Shown: positions 1-5,218 of the stretch, in pieces
Position numbering within the stretch: the stretch's first letter is position 1
Layout: each line of letters opens with the position of its first letter
Made by a program: the position numbers and the translations under genes
Origin: Candidatus Iainarchaeum sp.
GTDB lineage: Archaea > Iainarchaeota > Iainarchaeia > Iainarchaeales > CSSED10-239
Assembly (NCBI GenBank): GCA_937968065.1
Contig: CALBUD010000026.1
Coordinates: 1 to 5,218, forward strand
Reading direction: 5' to 3'
Length of the DNA stretch: 5,218 nt
The notes under the pieces: generated by a model
The model's database searches: none
Told to the model about the DNA's origin: nothing
The model's input: the letters and a program-made list of their open reading frames with translations, nothing else

Positions 1-296
1 TAACCGAAAAGAGAACCTAAACCTTCAGCAGCTGATTCTTCTGAAACTTCAACTTCTTCTTCTTTTTTCTCTTCAGCTTTTGTTTCTGTAGCACCTGTTG
101 CAGGTCCAGCAGCAACTGGCATTGATGCTTTTTCAATAGCTTCAGCAACATTTATATCTTTTAAAGAAGCTAAAAGACCTTTTAATTTTCCATCATCTAC
201 AGAAATTCCAGCAGAAGTTAAAACTTTTTTAACATTTTCTTCTGTTATTTCTTTTTTTGAATTGTGTAATAATAAAACTGCATATATATAATCCAT
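1..296 (-). CDS. rpl12: Archaeal ribosomal stalk protein P1 (aL12/L12e family). All 98 codons are present; only the last base of the stop codon falls outside the window.
   Basis: Manual translation from the ATG at 296..294 gives MDYIYAVLLLHNSKKEITEENVKKVLTSAGISVDDGKLKGLLASLKDINVAEAIEKASMPVAAGPATGATETKAEEKKEEEVEVSEESAAEGLGSLFG, followed by TA- at positions 2..1. The N-terminal M-[DE]-YIYA-x-LLLH motif, the Ala/Pro/Gly hinge, the acidic stretch and the GLG-x-LFG C-terminus are the hallmarks of archaeal P1. A GGTGA Shine-Dalgarno-like motif sits at 301..305, 4 nt upstream of the ATG. The gene follows uL10, as in the canonical operon. The ORF track omits it because the ORF is open at the window edge. 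Confidence 0.92.
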   Translation of the reverse strand, partial: MDYIYAVLLLHNSKKEITEENVKKVLTSAGISVDDGKLKGLLASLKDINVAEAIEKASMPVAAGPATGATETKAEEKKEEEVEVSEESAAEGLGSLFG

Positions 297-349
297 ATTT
301 TCACCTTTTTTTTATTTAATATATTTTTTTAAGAAAAAATCTCTAAAGA

Positions 350-1763: not shown

Positions 1764-1773
1764 TTGTTTCTTA

Positions 1774-1780
1774 CACCTCC
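1774..1780 (-). promoter_or_regulatory. Shine-Dalgarno-like site (GGAGGTG) for uL1
   Basis: cacctcc on the plus strand, 10 nt upstream of the ATG at 1763. Confidence 0.6.
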
Positions 1781-1782
1781 TG

Positions 1783-1866
1783 CTATAAAGCAGTTATATC
1801 GGTTTTTTTTAAAAATAAAAAGTTAAAGTTTAACTTTTATTAATATATATTGTATATTAAGAAGTA
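1783..1866 (-). promoter_or_regulatory. Probable promoter region for the uL1-uL10-P1 operon, containing TATA-like A/T boxes. The exact box and transcription start are not resolved.
   Basis: This is part of the 145-nt non-coding gap between the surface-gene cluster and uL1. Minus-strand candidates are CTTTATAG (1783..1790), GATATAA (1794..1800) and TATATATTAATA further upstream. The sequence is so AT-rich that a TATA/BRE assignment from sequence alone is weak. Confidence 0.25.
1809..1838 (-). terminator. Terminator-like element: a perfect 10-bp A/T-rich palindrome followed by an oligo-T tract on the minus strand
   Basis: The arms aaaagttaaa (1818..1827) and tttaactttt (1829..1838) are perfect inverted repeats around g1828. 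On the minus strand the element is followed by TTATTTTT. It lies about 70 nt downstream of the stop codon of the last surface-cluster gene. The stem has only one G:C pair, so it is thermodynamically weak. Archaeal termination mainly needs the oligo-T run. Confidence 0.35.
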
Positions 1867-1908
1867 TTTTTAAATGTTTATTTTTTTACATAAAGGTTTA
1901 ATTATTTG

Positions 1909-2352
1909 TTAGTTAGGAATATAGTCTATTTTATCTATATATATATAATAGTCATCCTCTGTGAAAAGATGCATAAAAATACCAAAAGAAACATTGTAAT
2001 CAAAATTATAAAGTTCCATTATGTTTTCTCCACTTGATAGATATAAAGGATCTTTAAGAGTAAAAATACCACAAGTAACATTAATACCATAACTTGTTAT
2101 TTTTATTTCTTCTTGTGTTAAAGAAGGAGAATAGGTAAAAGTTAATTTATTGTCTTTGATATATGCATTTGAAATAAAAGTTCCTTCTTTAAACTCTAGT
2201 TCTTTATAATCATACTCATTTTGAAAATTAAGATTAGATAAAAATAGTTGGTTCCAAGAAACAATTACAAAAATAATCAAACCTAAAATAATAAAGTAAA
2301 CTATAAATAATAACATTGAAAATATTTTTGATTTTTTGTTTTTATTATTCAT
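1909..2352 (-). CDS. Hypothetical small protein with an N-terminal membrane anchor and a predicted extracytoplasmic beta-rich domain
   Basis: The ORF is open from 2367. I favour the ATG at 2352 (MNNKNKKSKIFSMLLFIVYFIILGLIIFVIVSW...), giving 147 aa. A basic N-terminus is followed by about 22 hydrophobic residues and then a Tyr/Asp/Asn-rich domain of about 110 aa. I recognise no family. The start overlaps the stop codon of the upstream gene (2345..2347) by 8 nt, or by 23 nt if the start is 2367, which suggests translational coupling. The choice of start is uncertain. Confidence 0.6.
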   Translation of the reverse strand: MNNKNKKSKIFSMLLFIVYFIILGLIIFVIVSWNQLFLSNLNFQNEYDYKELEFKEGTFISNAYIKDNKLTFTYSPSLTQEEIKITSYGINVTCGIFTLKDPLYLSSGENIMELYNFDYNVSFGIFMHLFTEDDYYIYIDKIDYIPN

Positions 2353-2956
2353 ATTTTTCCCAAACATATCTTGGAGTTTCTGTTACTCTATCAACACAGA
2401 TTAAATCAATATTTGTTTTAAAATCTTTTTCAATGTTATCTAAATTTTTAAAACCACATGCATTTCCTTCTTTTACTTCTGAGTTGTTTGGATTTAAGTT
2501 TAAAACTAAATCTCCATCAACAACCTGCCAACTAAACTTTGGTTCATTATCTTCTATATATGTACAGATTAATTGTTGATCTGGATTTTTAGGATCATCA
2601 ATAACATCTCCATCTCTTACATGTCCACATTTTTTTCCAGGTTCAAACTCTGATGGAACGTCATATTCTTTATTATCTTCTTTTACAATCCATACAAATC
2701 TAGGACAAGTATTTCCTATATATGTACAAATTAATTCTTGATTAGGGTTGTTTGGATCAGTTATTGTTTTTCCATCATCTCTGTGTCCACAACGACCATT
2801 TTCTCTTAGTTCTTCTGGGTTTTGTCCACTTTGATTTTGTAATAAAAAATTATTTGTATCTTTACCTATATTTATTTTTATAAAACCTGTTAATAAAGAG
2901 ATAATGACTAATATTATTAAAATTGAAATAATTATTATAAATATTTTATTTTTCAT
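2345..2956 (-). CDS. Hypothetical membrane-anchored protein with three tandem copies of a two-cysteine repeat domain
   Basis: The 203-aa product has the N-terminus MKNKIFIIIISILIILVIISLLTGFI (signal anchor). Three repeats follow: CGHRDDGKTITDPNNPNQELICTYIGNTCPRFVW (aa 56-89), CGHVRDGDVIDDPKNPDQQLICTYIEDNEPKFSW (aa 110-143) and CGFKNLDNIEKDFKTNIDLICVDRVTETPRYVW (aa 167-199). The ATG at 2956 is 3 nt after the stop codon of the upstream gene, and GAGG lies about 12 nt upstream. Confidence 0.8.
   Translation of the reverse strand: MKNKIFIIIISILIILVIISLLTGFIKINIGKDTNNFLLQNQSGQNPEELRENGRCGHRDDGKTITDPNNPNQELICTYIGNTCPRFVWIVKEDNKEYDVPSEFEPGKKCGHVRDGDVIDDPKNPDQQLICTYIEDNEPKFSWQVVDGDLVLNLNPNNSEVKEGNACGFKNLDNIEKDFKTNIDLICVDRVTETPRYVWEKYE
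2360..2458 (-). repeat. Cys-repeat copy 3 (aa 167-199), more diverged
   Basis: It retains CG at the start, LIC, and [FY]-V-W 12 residues after the second Cys. The Cys-Cys spacing is 20, and the DG/NP positions have degenerated. Confidence 0.6.
2528..2629 (-). repeat. Cys-repeat copy 2 (aa 110-143)
   Basis: It has the same motif and the same Cys-Cys spacing (21 residues) and Cys-Trp spacing (12 residues) as copy 1. Confidence 0.8.
2690..2791 (-). repeat. Cys-repeat copy 1 (aa 56-89 of the 203-aa protein)
   Basis: Motif C-G-x3-DG-x-x-I-x-D-P-x-NP-x3-LIC-x11-W. Similarity to copy 2 is also visible at the DNA level: tatatatgtacaaattaattcttgat at 2717 versus tatatatgtacagattaattgttgat at 2555, an offset of 162 nt (54 codons). 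Confidence 0.8.
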
Positions 2957-2959
2957 AAA

Positions 2960-3274
2960 CTATTCAGCCTCTTGCCAAATTCTTTGATTACCTGTGCCTG
3001 TAACTTTACAGATTAATGTTCTTTCTGGGTTTTGAGAGTCTTGTATAGTTTTACCTTCATCAACCCCTCTACAAAAAGAACCTAAAGTTGCATTAGAGAT
3101 AACAGGATGATTTTCATTTCCTAAAGGTTCTTGAGTATCAGGTTCTAATGATTCATCTGTTGGAAGAAAAGTATCTTCTTTAGATAAATTTGATTTTGTT
3201 GGTTTAAATATTAAAAATAAAATTAAACCTATTAATATTAAAATTAAAATTCCAAATATTATTTTTTTATTCAT
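2960..3274 (-). CDS. Hypothetical membrane-anchored protein with one copy of the same two-cysteine repeat domain. It is a paralog of the downstream 203-aa gene.
   Basis: The 104-aa product starts with MNKKIIFGILILILIGLILFLIF (signal anchor), followed by an acidic, Pro-rich linker. Then comes CRGVDEGKTIQDSQNPERTLICKVTGTGNQRIW (aa 68-100, nt 2975..3073), with a Cys-Cys spacing of 21. A partial SD (GTGA, 3281..3284) lies 6 nt upstream of the ATG at 3274. The gene starts 23 nt after the GLUG ORF stop codon. Confidence 0.78.
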   Translation of the reverse strand: MNKKIIFGILILILIGLILFLIFKPTKSNLSKEDTFLPTDESLEPDTQEPLGNENHPVISNATLGSFCRGVDEGKTIQDSQNPERTLICKVTGTGNQRIWQEAE

Positions 3275-3297
3275 ATTTTTTCACATTTTTATAAAAA

Positions 3298-4491
3298 TTA
3301 TTCTGGAAGAGGTGTTTGAACATTATTTCTTAAGTAAGGATAAGTTGTTCCCTCTGTGATATTCCAGATATCTGTAAAATTCCAATCAATAAAGGTTGAT
3401 TGTTGTTTCATTTCTATTGTTGTTTTTCCAGTTGCACCTAAAGCACTGGTTAATTGATTAGATGTTTCTGTATCCCAAAAATTGTTTGAAAAAATAGGAC
3501 CATCACTCACTGAAAACCCTTTATTAGTAGGATTTTCAGAATCTTGATAAATTACTTGACCAATTGAATATGAGTTGATTATATTTGAATTATTATTTGA
3601 ATGACTTTCAAAAGTAGTTACAAATCCACCTATATTATTACTATCTCCCGATAATCTTATAACATCACTTAAAGAATAACTATTGGTTATATTTGAAACT
3701 TTAGAAATTAATCCTCCAACATAATCAATTCCAGAAACAGTTCCTGTTGAATAACTTTCATATATAGGTGTATCAGAAGCACCGATTAATCCACCTACAT
3801 AAGCGTTACCTACAACGTTTGCATCTGCAAAACTATATTTAATGGAGATATCTTTTAAGATTCCAGTACCACCCCACCCGTTACCTACAAGACCTCCTAC
3901 CTTATTATTACCGGTTACAGAACCTATAAAATAATTATTTGAAAAATTTAAAGTTGACCATAGAGATCCAATTAAACCACCAACATTATTTTTACTACTG
4001 TTTACAACACCTGTTGCATAACAATTAGAAATCTCTGTGTATTTTGGGGTACCAACTAAAGAACCCACTGCTACATATTGTGCATTTGAATCTAAAATAG
4101 TTACATTTTCTAAACCTAAATTTGTAATTTTAGAATTTTGTGTAGTTCCAAATAAACCAACTGAAAACCCACCACCAATAGGTTCTGGATTTGTTATATT
4201 CAAATCTATAATTTTGTATCCAGCACCATCAAAAATACCTTTAAACGGAAACTCGTTACTACCTATTGGTTCAAAATTAATGCCAGACATATTAATATCT
4301 GAACCTAAAATATAACTACCGGTTAATCGATTTCTTACACAATCAAGTTTTGTGGGAGTATCAATAACATATCTATTTTGAGAATCTAAAGTAATTTCTT
4401 CTGAACAGAAAGGGGTGTAAATACCATTATAGAAGTGTTTTGCCAAGAAAAGAAAGGGTAACCATTGTTTATTGAAGAATCTTGCTTCCAA
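3298..4491 (-). CDS. GLUG-motif, beta-helix adhesin-like surface protein, C-terminal module. It is probably not an independent gene but the continuation of the upstream frame (4386..5218).
   Basis: The translation shows the typical module: YILGSDINMSG..FEPIG....FKGIFDGAGYKIIDLNI.....VGLFG....KITNLGLENVTI. Repeated turns of the Y-x-x-G-x-V-x-G-x-x-x-VGGL[IV]G type follow (NVGGLIGS, KVGGLVGN, YVGGLIGA, YVGGLISK, IGGFVTT). The module closes with FWDTETSNQ..S.G..GKTTIEMKQQSTFIDWNFTDIWNI.EG..YPYL, as in GLUG (PF07581-type) proteins. There are about 9 N-x-S/T sequons. The only start codon in this frame upstream of the module is a TTG at 4491 with no SD. There is no ATG before residue 68 and no signal peptide. 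Confidence 0.85.
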   Translation of the reverse strand: MEARFFNKQWLPFLFLAKHFYNGIYTPFCSEEITLDSQNRYVIDTPTKLDCVRNRLTGSYILGSDINMSGINFEPIGSNEFPFKGIFDGAGYKIIDLNITNPEPIGGGFSVGLFGTTQNSKITNLGLENVTILDSNAQYVAVGSLVGTPKYTEISNCYATGVVNSSKNNVGGLIGSLWSTLNFSNNYFIGSVTGNNKVGGLVGNGWGGTGILKDISIKYSFADANVVGNAYVGGLIGASDTPIYESYSTGTVSGIDYVGGLISKVSNITNSYSLSDVIRLSGDSNNIGGFVTTFESHSNNNSNIINSYSIGQVIYQDSENPTNKGFSVSDGPIFSNNFWDTETSNQLTSALGATGKTTIEMKQQSTFIDWNFTDIWNITEGTTYPYLRNNVQTPLPE

Positions 4492-5218
4492 ACACTACCA
4501 AAATCCCAGTTAGTAAAAGTATTTTCATCAGGAACAGAAGTTAATTGTAAAGTGGTTTTACCTTCAGCATTACCAAAACTGGTTAGTTGATTTGAAGAAT
4601 CTACATCCCAATAATTATTAGAATCAATATAACAAGTATCAGATCCATCTGAATCTGTAAAACCTAAAAAACCTTTATCTGTTGGGTTGGTCGCACCTTC
4701 AAAAATGACTTCTCCTTTTGAATAATTATAATTTAAAGAACCGCTATTATGATAACCTAGAAAACCACCTATGTTATTTGAATCTCCAGAAAGTCTTGTA
4801 ACAGAACCTAGAGAATAATTGTTTATAACTTCTCCTTCATAAAAATAACCAGAAAAACCACCAACATAATTATTTCCTGAAACAGAACCAGAAGAATAAT
4901 TACTATTTAGTTTACCTTTAATATCTCCTGAAAAACCACCAACATAATTGTTTCCTGAAACATCTCCTGTTGAATAATTAGAATATCGTTTTCCGCTACC
5001 TCTACCTAAAAAACCACCTACATAATCATTTCCTGAAACATCTCCTGTTGAATAATTAGAATATAGTTTTCCGCTACCTCTACCTGAAAAACCACCTACA
5101 TAATTATTTCCAGAAACAATAGAAGAAGAAGAGTTGTTTGAATAAGCCCCTCCTGATAAATATCCTGAAAAACCACCTACATAATTATTTCCAGAAACAA
5201 TAGAAGAAGAAGAGTTGT
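4386..5218 (-). CDS. GLUG-motif, beta-helix adhesin-like protein, upstream module. The 5' end is truncated by the window edge. The frame differs from 3298..4491 and overlaps it by 106 nt.
   Basis: Manual translation with codon 5216..5214 = AAC gives NSSSSIVSGNNYVGGFSGYLSGGAYSNNSSSSIVSGNNYVGGFSGRGSGKLYSNYSTGDVSGNDYVGGFLGRGSGKRYSNYSTGDVSGNNYVGGFSGDIKGKLNSNYSSGSVSGNNYVGGFSGYFYEGEVINNYSLGSVTRLSGDSNNIGGFLGYHNSGSLNYNYSKGEVIFEGATNPTDKGFLGFTDSDGSDTCYIDSNNYWDVDSSNQLTSFGNAEGKTTLQLTSVPDENTFTNWDFGSVWKQDSSINNGYPFFSWQNTSIMVFTPLSVQKKLL, ending at TAG (4388..4386). It has the same turn repeats of about 26 aa and the same closing motif (YWD..S.NQ..S.G...GKTT....TF.NWDF..VW......GYP) as the downstream module. 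The ORF track omits it because the ORF is open at the edge. Confidence 0.85.
   Translation of the reverse strand, partial: NSSSSIVSGNNYVGGFSGYLSGGAYSNNSSSSIVSGNNYVGGFSGRGSGKLYSNYSTGDVSGNDYVGGFLGRGSGKRYSNYSTGDVSGNNYVGGFSGDIKGKLNSNYSSGSVSGNNYVGGFSGYFYEGEVINNYSLGSVTRLSGDSNNIGGFLGYHNSGSLNYNYSKGEVIFEGATNPTDKGFLGFTDSDGSDTCYIDSNNYWDVDSSNQLTSFGNAEGKTTLQLTSVPDENTFTNWDFGSVWKQDSSINNGYPFFSWQNTSIMVFTPLSVQKKLL
4873..5218 (-). repeat. In-frame tandem DNA repeats encoding beta-helix turns, with periods of 78 nt and 81 nt
   Basis: 4951..5028 and 5029..5106 differ at only 3 of 78 positions. A more diverged copy lies at 4873..4950. 5083..5137 and 5164..5218 are an exact 55-nt direct repeat with an 81-nt offset, and this repeat reaches the window edge. 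Confidence 0.9.

What the first reader, a model, noticed from the sequence alone, without database searches (positions are those of the whole stretch)
4386..4491. Frame break joining two GLUG modules, with an in-phase CCCUUUC slippery heptamer in the overlap
The upstream module is read with codon starts at 5216, 5213 and so on. It runs through its closing motif ...TFTNWDFGSVWKQDSSINNGYPFFSWQ and stops at TAG 4388..4386. The downstream 397-aa ORF is open from 4491 in the frame reached by a -1 shift. That ORF has only a TTG at its 5' end, no SD, no ATG for 67 codons and no signal peptide. Its first recognisable residues (YNGIYTPFCSEEITLDSQNRYVIDTPTKLDCVRNRLTGSYILGSDINMSG) look like the linker and start of a second GLUG module, not like a protein N-terminus. 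Both frames are open for 106 nt, so this is most simply one long multi-module surface protein interrupted by a -1 frame change. Inside the overlap, nt 4458..4452 on the minus strand read C CCT TTC, phased with the upstream frame as TA[C CCT TTC]. This fits the X XXY YYZ pattern of -1 programmed-frameshift sites. Slipping there would give ...NNGYPF-LFLAKHFYNGIYTPF..., which keeps a YPFL that mirrors the YPYL ending module 2. Other explanations are a 1-nt deletion or sequencing and assembly error (A4 run at 4438..4441, C4 run at 4412..4415), a decaying pseudogene, or an indel-based on/off switch of the distal module. The heptamer could be there by chance in such AT-rich sequence. I did not identify an obvious downstream stem-loop or pseudoknot.
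Basis: partly seen in the sequence, partly recalled or inferred. Interest (0 to 1): 0.62.

Follow-up and report, generated by a model that had tools for sequence, protein, structure and literature searches.

The report
Ordinary frame break in surface-protein gene
A large repetitive surface-protein gene of a tiny AT-rich archaeon is split by a one-base frame break in the linker between two of its modules, and the "slippery" CCCTTTC nearby is most likely a coincidence, so this looks like an ordinary mutation or sequence error, not programmed frameshifting.

Summary
On the minus strand, one frame is open from the contig edge to TAG 4388..4386. The -1 frame is open from 4491 to 3298. CCCTTTC (4458..4452) is in phase with the upstream frame.

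Both halves are GLUG beta-helix modules. Homologues, including the only positional homologue found (L015), carry such modules in one continuous ORF. Part of module 2's confidently modelled fold lies upstream of its first ATG (4290). One interrupted multi-module gene is therefore supported.

Programmed slippage at the heptamer is not supported:
- Homology continues in the upstream frame for four to five codons past the heptamer. The window reads GYPFFSWQN and the homologue profile consensus reads gyPilswqn. Shifting at the heptamer costs 6-10 bits.
- In-phase XXXYYYZ heptamers occur once per 67 codons in this contig, so about 0.5 are expected in the overlap.
- The RNA downstream folds no better than shuffled controls.
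- L015 has neither a heptamer nor a frame break.

The break lies somewhere in 4441..4389, in the variable linker. I read it as an unprogrammed one-base indel, either a recent real mutation or a consensus error. Reads are needed to decide between those. Interest is low.

The parts
4386..5218 (-). Upstream reading frame (0 frame). It holds the C-terminal about 260 residues of a GLUG beta-helix module, truncated by the contig end, then a 16-17-residue out-of-family tail and stop TAG 4388..4386.
   Evidence: for the translation. for homology to GLUG proteins; 38% identity to the L015 GLUG protein.
4848..5118 (-). 78-nt tandem array (3.5 copies, 85% matches) encoding 26-residue GLUG coils (..NYSTGDVSGNNYVGGFSG..). 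Related 78-81-nt-spaced copies continue to 5199, close to the contig end.
4452..4458 (-). C CCT TTC heptamer, in phase with the 0 frame. It encodes the (Y)-P-F of the conserved GYP motif. I judge it a chance by-product of the Pro-Phe codons.
   Evidence: 24 in-phase heptamers per 1605 codons; product score 122.0 bits against 128-132; no downstream structure.
4437..4448 (-). TCT TGG CAA AAC = S-W-Q-N, the end of the module-closing motif GYP-x-L-x-W-Q-N. It is read in the 0 frame, downstream of the heptamer.
   Evidence: among 106 homologue junctions, W 75, Q/E 72, N 31; profile consensus 'gyPilswqn'. P0003 has YPYLSWQN.
4389..4441 (-). Bracket within which the frame change must lie. It is the variable inter-module linker and contains the A4 run 4441..4438 and the C4 run 4415..4412. 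It holds no in-phase slippery heptamer and no long homopolymer.
   Evidence: score plateau of 128-132 bits for every shift point from 4442 to 4391.: -1-frame homology resumes at SQNRYVIDT, starting at 4383; the codon-usage scan peaks at 4406.
3298..4491 (-). The -1-frame ORF (397 codons plus stop). From about 4383 to 3301 it encodes a complete second GLUG beta-helix module ending ...GTTYPYLRNNVQTPLPE*. Codons 1 to about 17-35 are only an accidentally open stretch.
   Evidence: Pfam Glug 36 bits (cut-off 20.5), Peptidase_M26_N weak. AF2 pLDDT 89.7; top Foldseek hits 3n6z and IgA1 protease.
4288..4290 (-). First ATG of the -1 ORF (codon 68). It lies inside the folded module and has no Shine-Dalgarno-like sequence.
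   Evidence: upstream contexts; L1 has GGAGGTG, this ATG has none; residues encoded upstream of it form strand 21-23, helix 26-34 and strand 39-42, with block pLDDT of 94-96 over residues 21-40.

Best explanation
This is a non-programmed frame break. A net one-base deletion (or an equivalent 3n+2 insertion) lies in the variable linker between two GLUG beta-helix modules of one large surface-protein gene, somewhere in 4441..4389, downstream of the CCCTTTC heptamer.

I commit to a genuine, recent mutation in this genome or population. The confidence of 0.5 is for that specific reading. The broader claim, an unprogrammed indel whether real or artefactual, I put at about 0.85.

As the sequence stands, translation (inferred) finishes module 1 through ...GYPFFSWQN. 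It then adds up to about 16 unrelated residues and stops at TAG 4388. Module 2 is left untranslated: it has no start codon, ribosome-binding site or signal sequence of its own.

The heptamer exists only because the conserved Gly-Tyr-Pro-Phe motif happens to be encoded ..TAC CCT TTC.

Shown: the frame geometry, the homology of both halves to single-ORF proteins, the bracket for the break, and the lack of frameshift signals. Inferred: that the change is a real mutation and not a consensus error, and the fate of the product.
For: One gene, not two:
- Homologues carry two or more such modules in one polypeptide, and alignments run straight across the junction. tblastn segments in L006, L001 and L010 all fall in one frame per locus.
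- L015 is the only positional homologue found. A GLUG gene is followed by a small gene and then a 57%-identical homologue of the neighbouring 203-aa protein. It encodes module, chitobiase-like domain and module in one 634-aa ORF, with the same C-terminus GTTYPYLRNNIQSPLPE*.
- Module 2 begins upstream of its first ATG. The profile match to SQNRYVIDTPTKLDCVRNRLTGSYILGSDIN scores 11.2 bits, and that segment is a high-confidence structural cap.

Position of the break:
- The 0 frame matches the closing motif through SWQN.
- The profile score of the conceptual product rises from 122.0 bits (shift at the heptamer) to 126-132 bits for any shift from 4445 to 4391.
- A codon-usage switch-point scan puts the heptamer 8.4 bits below the best point.

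Real mutation over artefact:
- Ten A/T runs of 7-8 nt occur elsewhere in the contig. At least four lie inside the L1, L10 and 203-aa coding regions, and all are read in frame. The bracket has no run longer than 4.
- The related copies of the repeat array reach to within about 20 nt of the contig end. On my own knowledge, that is typical of short-read assemblies, which rarely make indel errors.
- The GLUG block is absent from the same position in relatives with 80-82% identical L1. It is therefore a variable, dispensable region.
Against: - Module 2 is perfectly open for about 365 codons after the break, in DNA where off-frame stops occur every 8-10 codons. The lesion is therefore very recent, or module 2 is still expressed, or the break is an artefact.
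- No reads, coverage or second assembly were available. The contig's proteins are not indexed for context look-up.
- No true orthologue with a collinear junction exists in any collection searched. The ancestral sequence of the linker is therefore unknown, and the exact base cannot be named.
Confidence: 0.5

Rival explanations
1. Sequencing, assembly or consensus artefact. The real gene is one continuous ORF, and one base was lost (or two gained) in the linker when the contig consensus was made.
For: - Module 2 shows no second lesion over 1.1 kb.
- The contig is short (5218 bp, the whole record), which may mean low coverage.
- The gene is internally repetitive, a setting in which assemblers and polishers make mistakes.
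- Adding one A to the A4 run gives a natural ...GYPFFSWQKHFYNGIYTPF... junction, with a 22-residue linker inside the 15-25-residue range seen in homologues.
Against: - The 7-8-nt homopolymers checked in coding regions elsewhere in the contig are all in frame, so there is no sign of homopolymer-indel noise.
- The bracket contains only runs of 4 nt or fewer.
- The junction lies in unique linker sequence, not inside the repeats.
Confidence: 0.35
2. Programmed -1 ribosomal frameshifting at C CCU UUC (4458..4452). Most ribosomes would make a one-module protein ending at TAG 4388. A fraction would slip and make the two-module fusion ...GYPF-LFLAKHFYNGIYTPF...
For: - The heptamer is in phase and fits X XXY YYZ, with Y = U and Z not G. 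The rule is as stated in PMC8211752.
- The overlap geometry is right, and module 2 is intact.
- The 0-frame product would keep a complete closing motif, so retention of SWQN in the 0 frame does not by itself exclude this model.
- YPFL matches the commonest residue at that motif position (L in 88 of 106).
Against: - About 0.5 such heptamers are expected by chance in the overlap.
- There is no stimulatory structure. The MFE z-scores of the downstream 48-141 nt are +1.75, +1.40, -0.28, +0.69 and +0.50. Rfam finds nothing.
- The fusion made at the heptamer loses W-Q-N and scores 6-10 bits worse than later junctions.
- The -1-frame stretch LFLAKH has no counterpart in homologues.
- L015 has no heptamer at its YPYL (tat cct tat cta) and no frame break.
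- Only one cellular -1 frameshift is established in Archaea (PMC8211752, PMC1616953).
Confidence: 0.05
3. Indel-based on/off switch (phase variation) of the distal module, through length changes in the A4 or C4 run or elsewhere in the linker. The population would then contain both one-module and two-module alleles.
For: - This is a surface-protein gene in a variable genomic block.
- Module 2 is kept intact.
- The break lies next to short homopolymers.
Against: - Runs of 4 nt are far shorter than the tracts that give useful slippage rates in known contingency loci (my own knowledge).
- Much longer A/T runs in the same contig are stable and in frame.
- No population data are available.
Confidence: 0.05
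4. Two separately translated genes. Module 2 would be initiated on its own at TTG 4491, TTG 4446 or ATG 4290, or by re-initiation after TAG 4388.
For: An ORF with a formal TTG start exists. Not every gene on the contig shows a Shine-Dalgarno sequence.
Against: - None of the three candidate starts has an SD-like sequence.
- There is no signal or anchor sequence, whereas archaeal homologues start with a pilin-like hydrophobic N-terminus (P0005, P0006).
- The first 17-35 codons of the ORF match nothing.
- Starting at ATG 4290 would delete a structured cap of the module.
- Among the homologue N-termini inspected, none starts at this point of the module; they show the module start only after a signal sequence or an upstream module.
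Confidence: 0.03

Closest known systems
Frameshift-interrupted coding sequence (pseudogene or 'frameshifted' CDS, as routinely flagged in prokaryotic genome annotation)
   Same: Two adjacent ORFs in frames 0 and -1 together match contiguous parts of single-ORF homologues. The downstream part has no start or signal of its own. The break lies in a poorly conserved linker.
   Different: Nothing substantive. Only the cause remains open: a real mutation or a consensus error.
Sulfolobus/Saccharolobus solfataricus fucA1 alpha-L-fucosidase, the one established cellular -1 programmed frameshift in Archaea (PMC1616953, PMC8211752)
   Same: An archaeal gene split into two ORFs in 0 and -1 frames, with a short overlap that contains an in-phase X XXY YYZ heptamer.
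   Different: - The fucA1 overlap also carries flanking rare codons and a putative stem-loop. In fucA1 the slippery sequence, rare codon and stem-loop region are 100% identical across Sulfolobales genes, and full-length homologues carry Lys or Asn at the junction, as in the shifted product.
- Here there is no structure and no conservation. Homology runs past the heptamer in the 0 frame, and no expression data exist.
GLUG-motif beta-helix modules (Pfam PF07581 and the Peptidase_M26_N region; structures 3n6z BACOVA_03286 and the N-terminal domain of streptococcal/Gemella IgA1 proteases 6xja, 7uvk)
   Same: - Pfam GLUG hit above the cut-off.
- The predicted right-handed beta-helix superposes on 3n6z (Foldseek E 5e-9, TM 0.57-0.62).
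- Same module boundaries: PY-x-I-x-T at the start and W-D-F...YP-x-L-x-W-Q at the end.
- Tandem modules within one protein.
   Different: - No M26 metalloprotease domain is present in the part seen.
- The host is an AT-rich DPANN-type archaeon.
- Sequence identity to any database protein is at most about 47% locally.
- The function of the modules is unknown. Adhesion or glycan binding is only inferred from the fold.

Membership tests
-1 programmed ribosomal frameshift site | Slippery heptamer X XXY YYZ in phase with the upstream frame, inside the ORF overlap | tested here: met
   C CCT TTC lies at 4458..4452 in phase. It is not beyond chance: 24 in-phase heptamers per 1605 codons in this contig.
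-1 programmed ribosomal frameshift site | Stimulatory RNA structure (stem-loop or pseudoknot) 5-9 nt downstream of the heptamer | tested here: not met
   MFE of 48, 63, 98, 82 and 141 nt downstream: z = +1.75, +1.40, -0.28, +0.69 and +0.50 against dinucleotide shuffles. No Rfam match. Pseudoknots were not explicitly modelled.
-1 programmed ribosomal frameshift site | Protein homology changes frame at the heptamer | tested here: not met
   The 0 frame continues to match the motif (SWQN) after the heptamer. A shift at the heptamer scores 122.0 bits, against 126-132 bits for later shift points. For the tail alone the scores are 33.7 and 25.0 bits.
-1 programmed ribosomal frameshift site | Heptamer and two-frame layout conserved in related genomes | tested here: not met
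   No close orthologue was found in four collections. The only positional homologue (L015) has one ORF and no heptamer. Its junction carries an extra domain, so the comparison is not base-for-base.
-1 programmed ribosomal frameshift site | Trans-frame protein product detected | not testable with these tools
   Needs proteomics, ribosome profiling or a reporter assay.
Frameshift-interrupted CDS (mutation or sequence error) | Both ORFs match consecutive parts of uninterrupted homologues | tested here: met
   150 of 258 BLAST segments span the junction. See also the alignments, the consensus, and the L015 single ORF.
Frameshift-interrupted CDS (mutation or sequence error) | The downstream ORF lacks its own initiation and targeting signals, and homologous or structured sequence extends upstream of its first ATG | tested here: met
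Frameshift-interrupted CDS (mutation or sequence error) | Read-level evidence separating a true mutation from a consensus error | not testable with these tools
   No reads were available, and the contig is not indexed for look-up.
GLUG-motif beta-helix module (PF07581 / Peptidase_M26_N-like) | Pfam GLUG match above the gathering score | tested here: met
   Module 2 scores 36 bits against a cut-off of 20.5. The upstream fragment has no Pfam hit of its own, but it aligns to GLUG proteins.
GLUG-motif beta-helix module (PF07581 / Peptidase_M26_N-like) | Right-handed beta-helix fold like 3n6z and the IgA1 protease N-domain | tested here: met
   AF2 model with pLDDT 89.7 and pTM 0.90. Foldseek: 3n6z E 5.2e-9; 7uvk, 6xja and 6xjb at E 1e-5 to 1e-3.

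The most novel reading that the evidence does not exclude
The CCCUUUC heptamer, or another site in the overlap, supports low-level -1 frameshifting in a DPANN-type archaeon. One gene would then yield a short one-module and a long two-module GLUG surface protein in a fixed ratio. That would be only the second cellular -1 programmed frameshift known in Archaea, and the first in a surface or adhesin gene.
Probability: 0.04. Interest if true: 0.6.

Novelty: already known. Interest (0 to 1): 0.1.

Why it matters
It matters little as it stands. It is a routine interrupted gene, and annotation should mark it as frameshifted and not as two proteins or a recoding site.

The practical lesson is methodological. 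In AT-rich genomes, in-phase XXXYYYZ heptamers are frequent (about 1 per 67 codons here). The conserved Gly-Tyr-Pro-Phe motif itself can spell one. A heptamer inside an ORF overlap is therefore weak evidence unless protein homology switches frame exactly there and relatives conserve it.

If reads showed a stable frame break together with an expressed fusion, the case would become interesting, because only one cellular -1 frameshift is known in Archaea.

Tried and rejected
- Exact look-ups of the contig's own proteins (L1, the 104-aa and 203-aa proteins, and their database ids) for genomic context found nothing on record. No longer source contig or second assembly could be fetched.
- Exact look-up of three possible gene calls of the GLUG ORFs in the protein collection found none. 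How the depositor annotated them is unknown.
- The search for orthologous loci with the repaired junction protein covered GTDB genomes, JGI metagenomes and viral contigs. It returned only distant (27-38% identical) GLUG genes plus a 29-residue, 66%-identical C-terminal match (L011).
- The synteny route through ribosomal protein L1 found relatives with 80-82% identical L1. They have enolase and a 282-aa gene upstream of L1 and no GLUG gene within 10 kb.
- I tried to pin the exact base of the indel. The profile scores are flat from 4442 to 4391. The codon-usage scan mildly prefers about 4406-4433. Resemblance of the -1-frame NGIYTPF/PFCSEEIT to homologue linkers (DGTPIGPF, PFSGGSGT) mildly prefers a break near the A4 run. 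This is unresolved.
- I considered codon reassignment after seeing internal TGA codons in three Logan gene calls of L012. The counterparts in L013 stop exactly there, so it is a gene-calling artefact and the standard code applies.
- I considered the second CCCTTTC at 4414..4408. It is in phase only with the -1 frame, so it is useless for a 0 to -1 shift.
- PDB sequence search, NCBIfam, Rfam and the tRNA scan returned nothing relevant.
Full report
**Setting.** The window is an entire 5218-bp contig. The database copy of its L1 protein, P0121, is 100% identical and comes from a contig of exactly that length. GC content is about 21-32%. All genes are on the minus strand:
- a GLUG-repeat gene, 5218..3298;
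- three small membrane or secreted proteins of 104, 203 and 152 aa;
- ribosomal proteins L1, L10/P0 (with the archaeal RL10P insertion domain) and L12/P1.

The nearest L1 relatives are 80-82% identical. They lie on 0.66-0.84-Mb contigs labelled only 'archaeon'. More distant ones are labelled Candidatus ainarchaeum or Diapherotrites. From this I infer a small-genome DPANN-type archaeon.

**Observation.**
- The frame with codon starts at 5216, 5213 and so on runs from the contig edge through ...TFTNWDFGSVWKQDSSINNGYPFFSWQNTSIMVFTPLSVQKKLL to TAG 4388..4386.
- The -1 frame is open from TTG 4491 to 3298, 397 codons, and its first ATG is codon 68 at 4290.
- The overlap is 106 nt.
- CCCTTTC lies at 4458..4452, phased TA[C CCT TTC].
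- The A4 run (4441..4438) and the C4 run (4415..4412) are present.

**What the two halves are.** I repaired the gene conceptually by adding one A to the A4 run. The repaired protein finds 4733 GLUG-motif proteins. The best hits have E 1.9e-91 to 1e-53, but identity is only 27-47%.

Module 2 has a Pfam GLUG hit of 36 bits against a cut-off of 20.5, and a sub-threshold Peptidase_M26_N hit. An AlphaFold2 model of the -1 ORF from residue 21, built with 40 homologues, is confident (pLDDT 89.7, pTM 0.90) and is a beta-helix. Its best structural matches are the Bacteroides ovatus 'putative IgA1 protease' 3n6z (E 5e-9) and the N-terminal domain of streptococcal and Gemella IgA1 proteases.

Module 1 contains a 78-nt tandem array, 3.5 copies at 85% matches, that encodes 26-residue coils.

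**One gene or two.** The evidence points to one gene.
- In the homologues, modules are strung together in single polypeptides. Of 258 BLAST segments from the 120 listed hits, 150 run uninterrupted across the equivalent junction.
- The alignment consensus reads ...TFxxWDFxxxWxIxxxxxYPxLxW - about 20 residues - PYLIxTxxxLxxI...DIDL....
- The archaeal-looking homologues P0005 and P0006 begin with a pilin-like hydrophobic N-terminus (..ALSPIIATILLV..) and end ...YPYLRNNT, like the window's ...YPYLRNNVQTPLPE.
- The -1-frame residues SQNRYVIDTPTKLDCVRNRLTGSYILGSDIN are all encoded upstream of the first ATG. They match the module start in a profile of 114 homologue junctions at 11.2 bits. In the model they form a strand-helix-strand cap, with block pLDDT of 94-96 over residues 21-40.
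- None of the candidate starts (TTG 4491, TTG 4446, ATG 4290) has a Shine-Dalgarno-like sequence, whereas L1 has GGAGGTG. There is no signal sequence.

**Where the frame changes.** The family's closing motif is G-Y-P-x-L-x-W-[QE]-[N..]. Among 106 homologue junctions, the residues after YP are L in 88, W in 75, Q or E in 72 and N in 31. The HMM consensus is literally 'gyPilswqn'. P0003 has YPYLSWQN.

The window reads GYPFFSWQN in the upstream frame. S-W-Q-N (4448..4437) lies downstream of the heptamer, so homology continues in the 0 frame for four to five codons after CCCTTTC.

I built every possible -1 junction product and scored each against the junction profile:

| Shift point | Score (bits) |
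|---|---|
| at the heptamer | 122.0 |
| after W | 126.0 |
| after Q | 128.1 |
| every later point down to 4391 | 129-132 |

For the tail alone, the 0-frame reading scores 33.7 bits and the heptamer-slip reading 25.0 bits. The -1-frame translation of the overlap matches nothing.

I also ran an independent codon-usage switch-point scan, trained on 12,706 codons from this contig and two relatives. It puts the heptamer 8.4 bits below the optimum near 4406.

Homology in the -1 frame resumes by 4383, and the 0 frame ends at 4388. The break is therefore bracketed to 4441..4389, in the variable linker. I could not narrow it further. The linker length after repair is about 21-22 residues, which fits the 15-25-residue range seen in homologues.

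**Is anything programmed?** I tested four things.
- *Chance.* In-phase XXXYYYZ heptamers occur 24 times in 1605 codons of this contig's genes. Ribosomal protein genes carry AAAAAAA, TTTAAAA and AAAAAAC. About 0.5 are expected in a 34-codon overlap. The heptamer here is simply the codons for the conserved Tyr-Pro-Phe.
- *Structure.* RNA downstream of the heptamer folds no better than dinucleotide shuffles, with z = +1.75, +1.40 and -0.28 for 48, 63 and 98 nt and +0.69 and +0.50 for wider windows. Rfam finds nothing.
- *Signals within the bracket.* Reading the 0-frame codons from 4442 to 4386, I find no in-phase slippery heptamer. The longest homopolymer is 4 nt, too short for transcriptional slippage.
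- *Conservation.* No close orthologue exists in the 5.8-billion-protein collection, GTDB genomes, JGI metagenomes or viral contigs. In relatives, the neighbourhood of L1 carries no GLUG gene.

A search with the neighbouring 203-aa protein found a 57%-identical homologue on a 4.1-kb contig, L015. There, a GLUG gene is followed by a small Cys-motif protein and then the 203-aa homologue, as in the window. That GLUG gene is a single 634-codon ORF running from a module end (..SYPYLKSNEQ..) through a chitobiase-like domain to a full module, ending ...GTTYPYLRNNIQSPLPE*. It is 38% identical to both window halves. Its YPYL is encoded tat cct tat cta, with no heptamer. The junction is not collinear, so this is supportive but not decisive.

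Prior knowledge also weighs against a programmed event. Only one cellular -1 programmed frameshift is established in Archaea, fucA1 of S. solfataricus (PMC1616953; review PMC8211752).

One caveat applies. A frameshift model in which both products matter would also keep SWQN in the 0 frame, so the homology argument lowers that model but does not eliminate it. I put it at about 5%.

**Real mutation or artefact.** This cannot be settled without reads.

For a real change:
- The contig has ten 7-8-nt A/T runs. Those inside the L1, L10 and 203-aa coding regions are all in frame.
- The bracket has no run longer than 4 nt and lies in unique sequence.
- Copies of the repeat array reach to within about 20 nt of the contig end. 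On my own knowledge, this is typical of short-read assemblies, which rarely introduce indels.
- The block is lineage-specific, and surface genes of this kind decay easily.

For an artefact:
- Module 2 is flawless for about 365 codons, although off-frame stops occur every 8-10 codons in this DNA.
- The contig is short.

I split the 'unprogrammed indel' explanation, about 0.85 in total, roughly 0.5 real to 0.35 artefact.

**Verdict.** The single-protein reading is supported. The slippery-heptamer reading is not supported. This is an ordinary frameshift-interrupted GLUG beta-helix surface-protein gene in a DPANN-type archaeon, of low interest unless read or proteomic data show otherwise.

Noticed in passing
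window 2960..3274 (-) and 2345..2956 (-); L015 1927..2364 and 2378..3001: Two adjacent small proteins (104 and 203 aa) each have an N-terminal hydrophobic helix. They carry one and three copies of a Cys-bracketed motif of about 30 residues, roughly C-G-x-x-D-x-G-x-x-I-x-D-x-x-N-P-x-x-x-L-I-C-x-Y. Neither has a Pfam or NCBIfam hit. Only two homologues (54-57% identity) were found among 5.8 billion proteins. In L015 the same gene pair again sits directly downstream of a GLUG gene, so the pairing may be functional.
   Followed up: partly
window 4848..5118, with related copies to 5199: A 78-nt tandem array (3.5 copies, 85% matches) encodes 26-residue GLUG coils. Related copies reach to within about 20 nt of the contig end, which probably explains why assembly stopped there. 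Copy number may be collapsed.
   Followed up: partly
window 1764..5218 compared with L012, L013, L014: In relatives with 80-82% identical L1, the genes upstream of L1 are a 282-aa protein and enolase. They are not the 152-, 203- and 104-aa genes and the GLUG gene seen here. The L1-L10-L12 genes themselves are conserved. The GLUG block is therefore a lineage-specific insertion or replacement next to the ribosomal operon.
   Followed up: partly
L012 3937..4383, 6695..7369, 13831..14322: Three gene calls in the Logan assembly run through an in-frame TGA near their 3' ends. The orthologues in L013 stop exactly at that codon. This looks like gene calling with a TGA-coding table and not real reassignment.
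   Followed up: yes
window 4408..4414 (-): A second CCCTTTC lies 44 nt downstream of the first, in phase with the -1 frame only (A[C CCT TTC] = T-P-F). It illustrates how easily Pro-Phe codons generate this heptamer.
   Followed up: yes
proteins P0005 and P0006 (homologues): The most similar archaeal-looking GLUG proteins start with a pilin-like hydrophobic N-terminus (MFLNKSKQKALSPIIATILLVVVAV..). They place a chitobiase/hexosaminidase C-terminal-like domain between GLUG modules and end ...YPYLRNNT, as the window protein does. The missing N-terminus of the window gene may be of this type.
   Followed up: no
window 1..300 (-): The ribosomal protein L12/P1 gene (MDYIYAVLLLHNSKKEI...EESAAEGLGSLFG) runs to the very start of the window. 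The listed 44-aa ORF at 17..151 is an off-frame artefact within it.
   Followed up: yes
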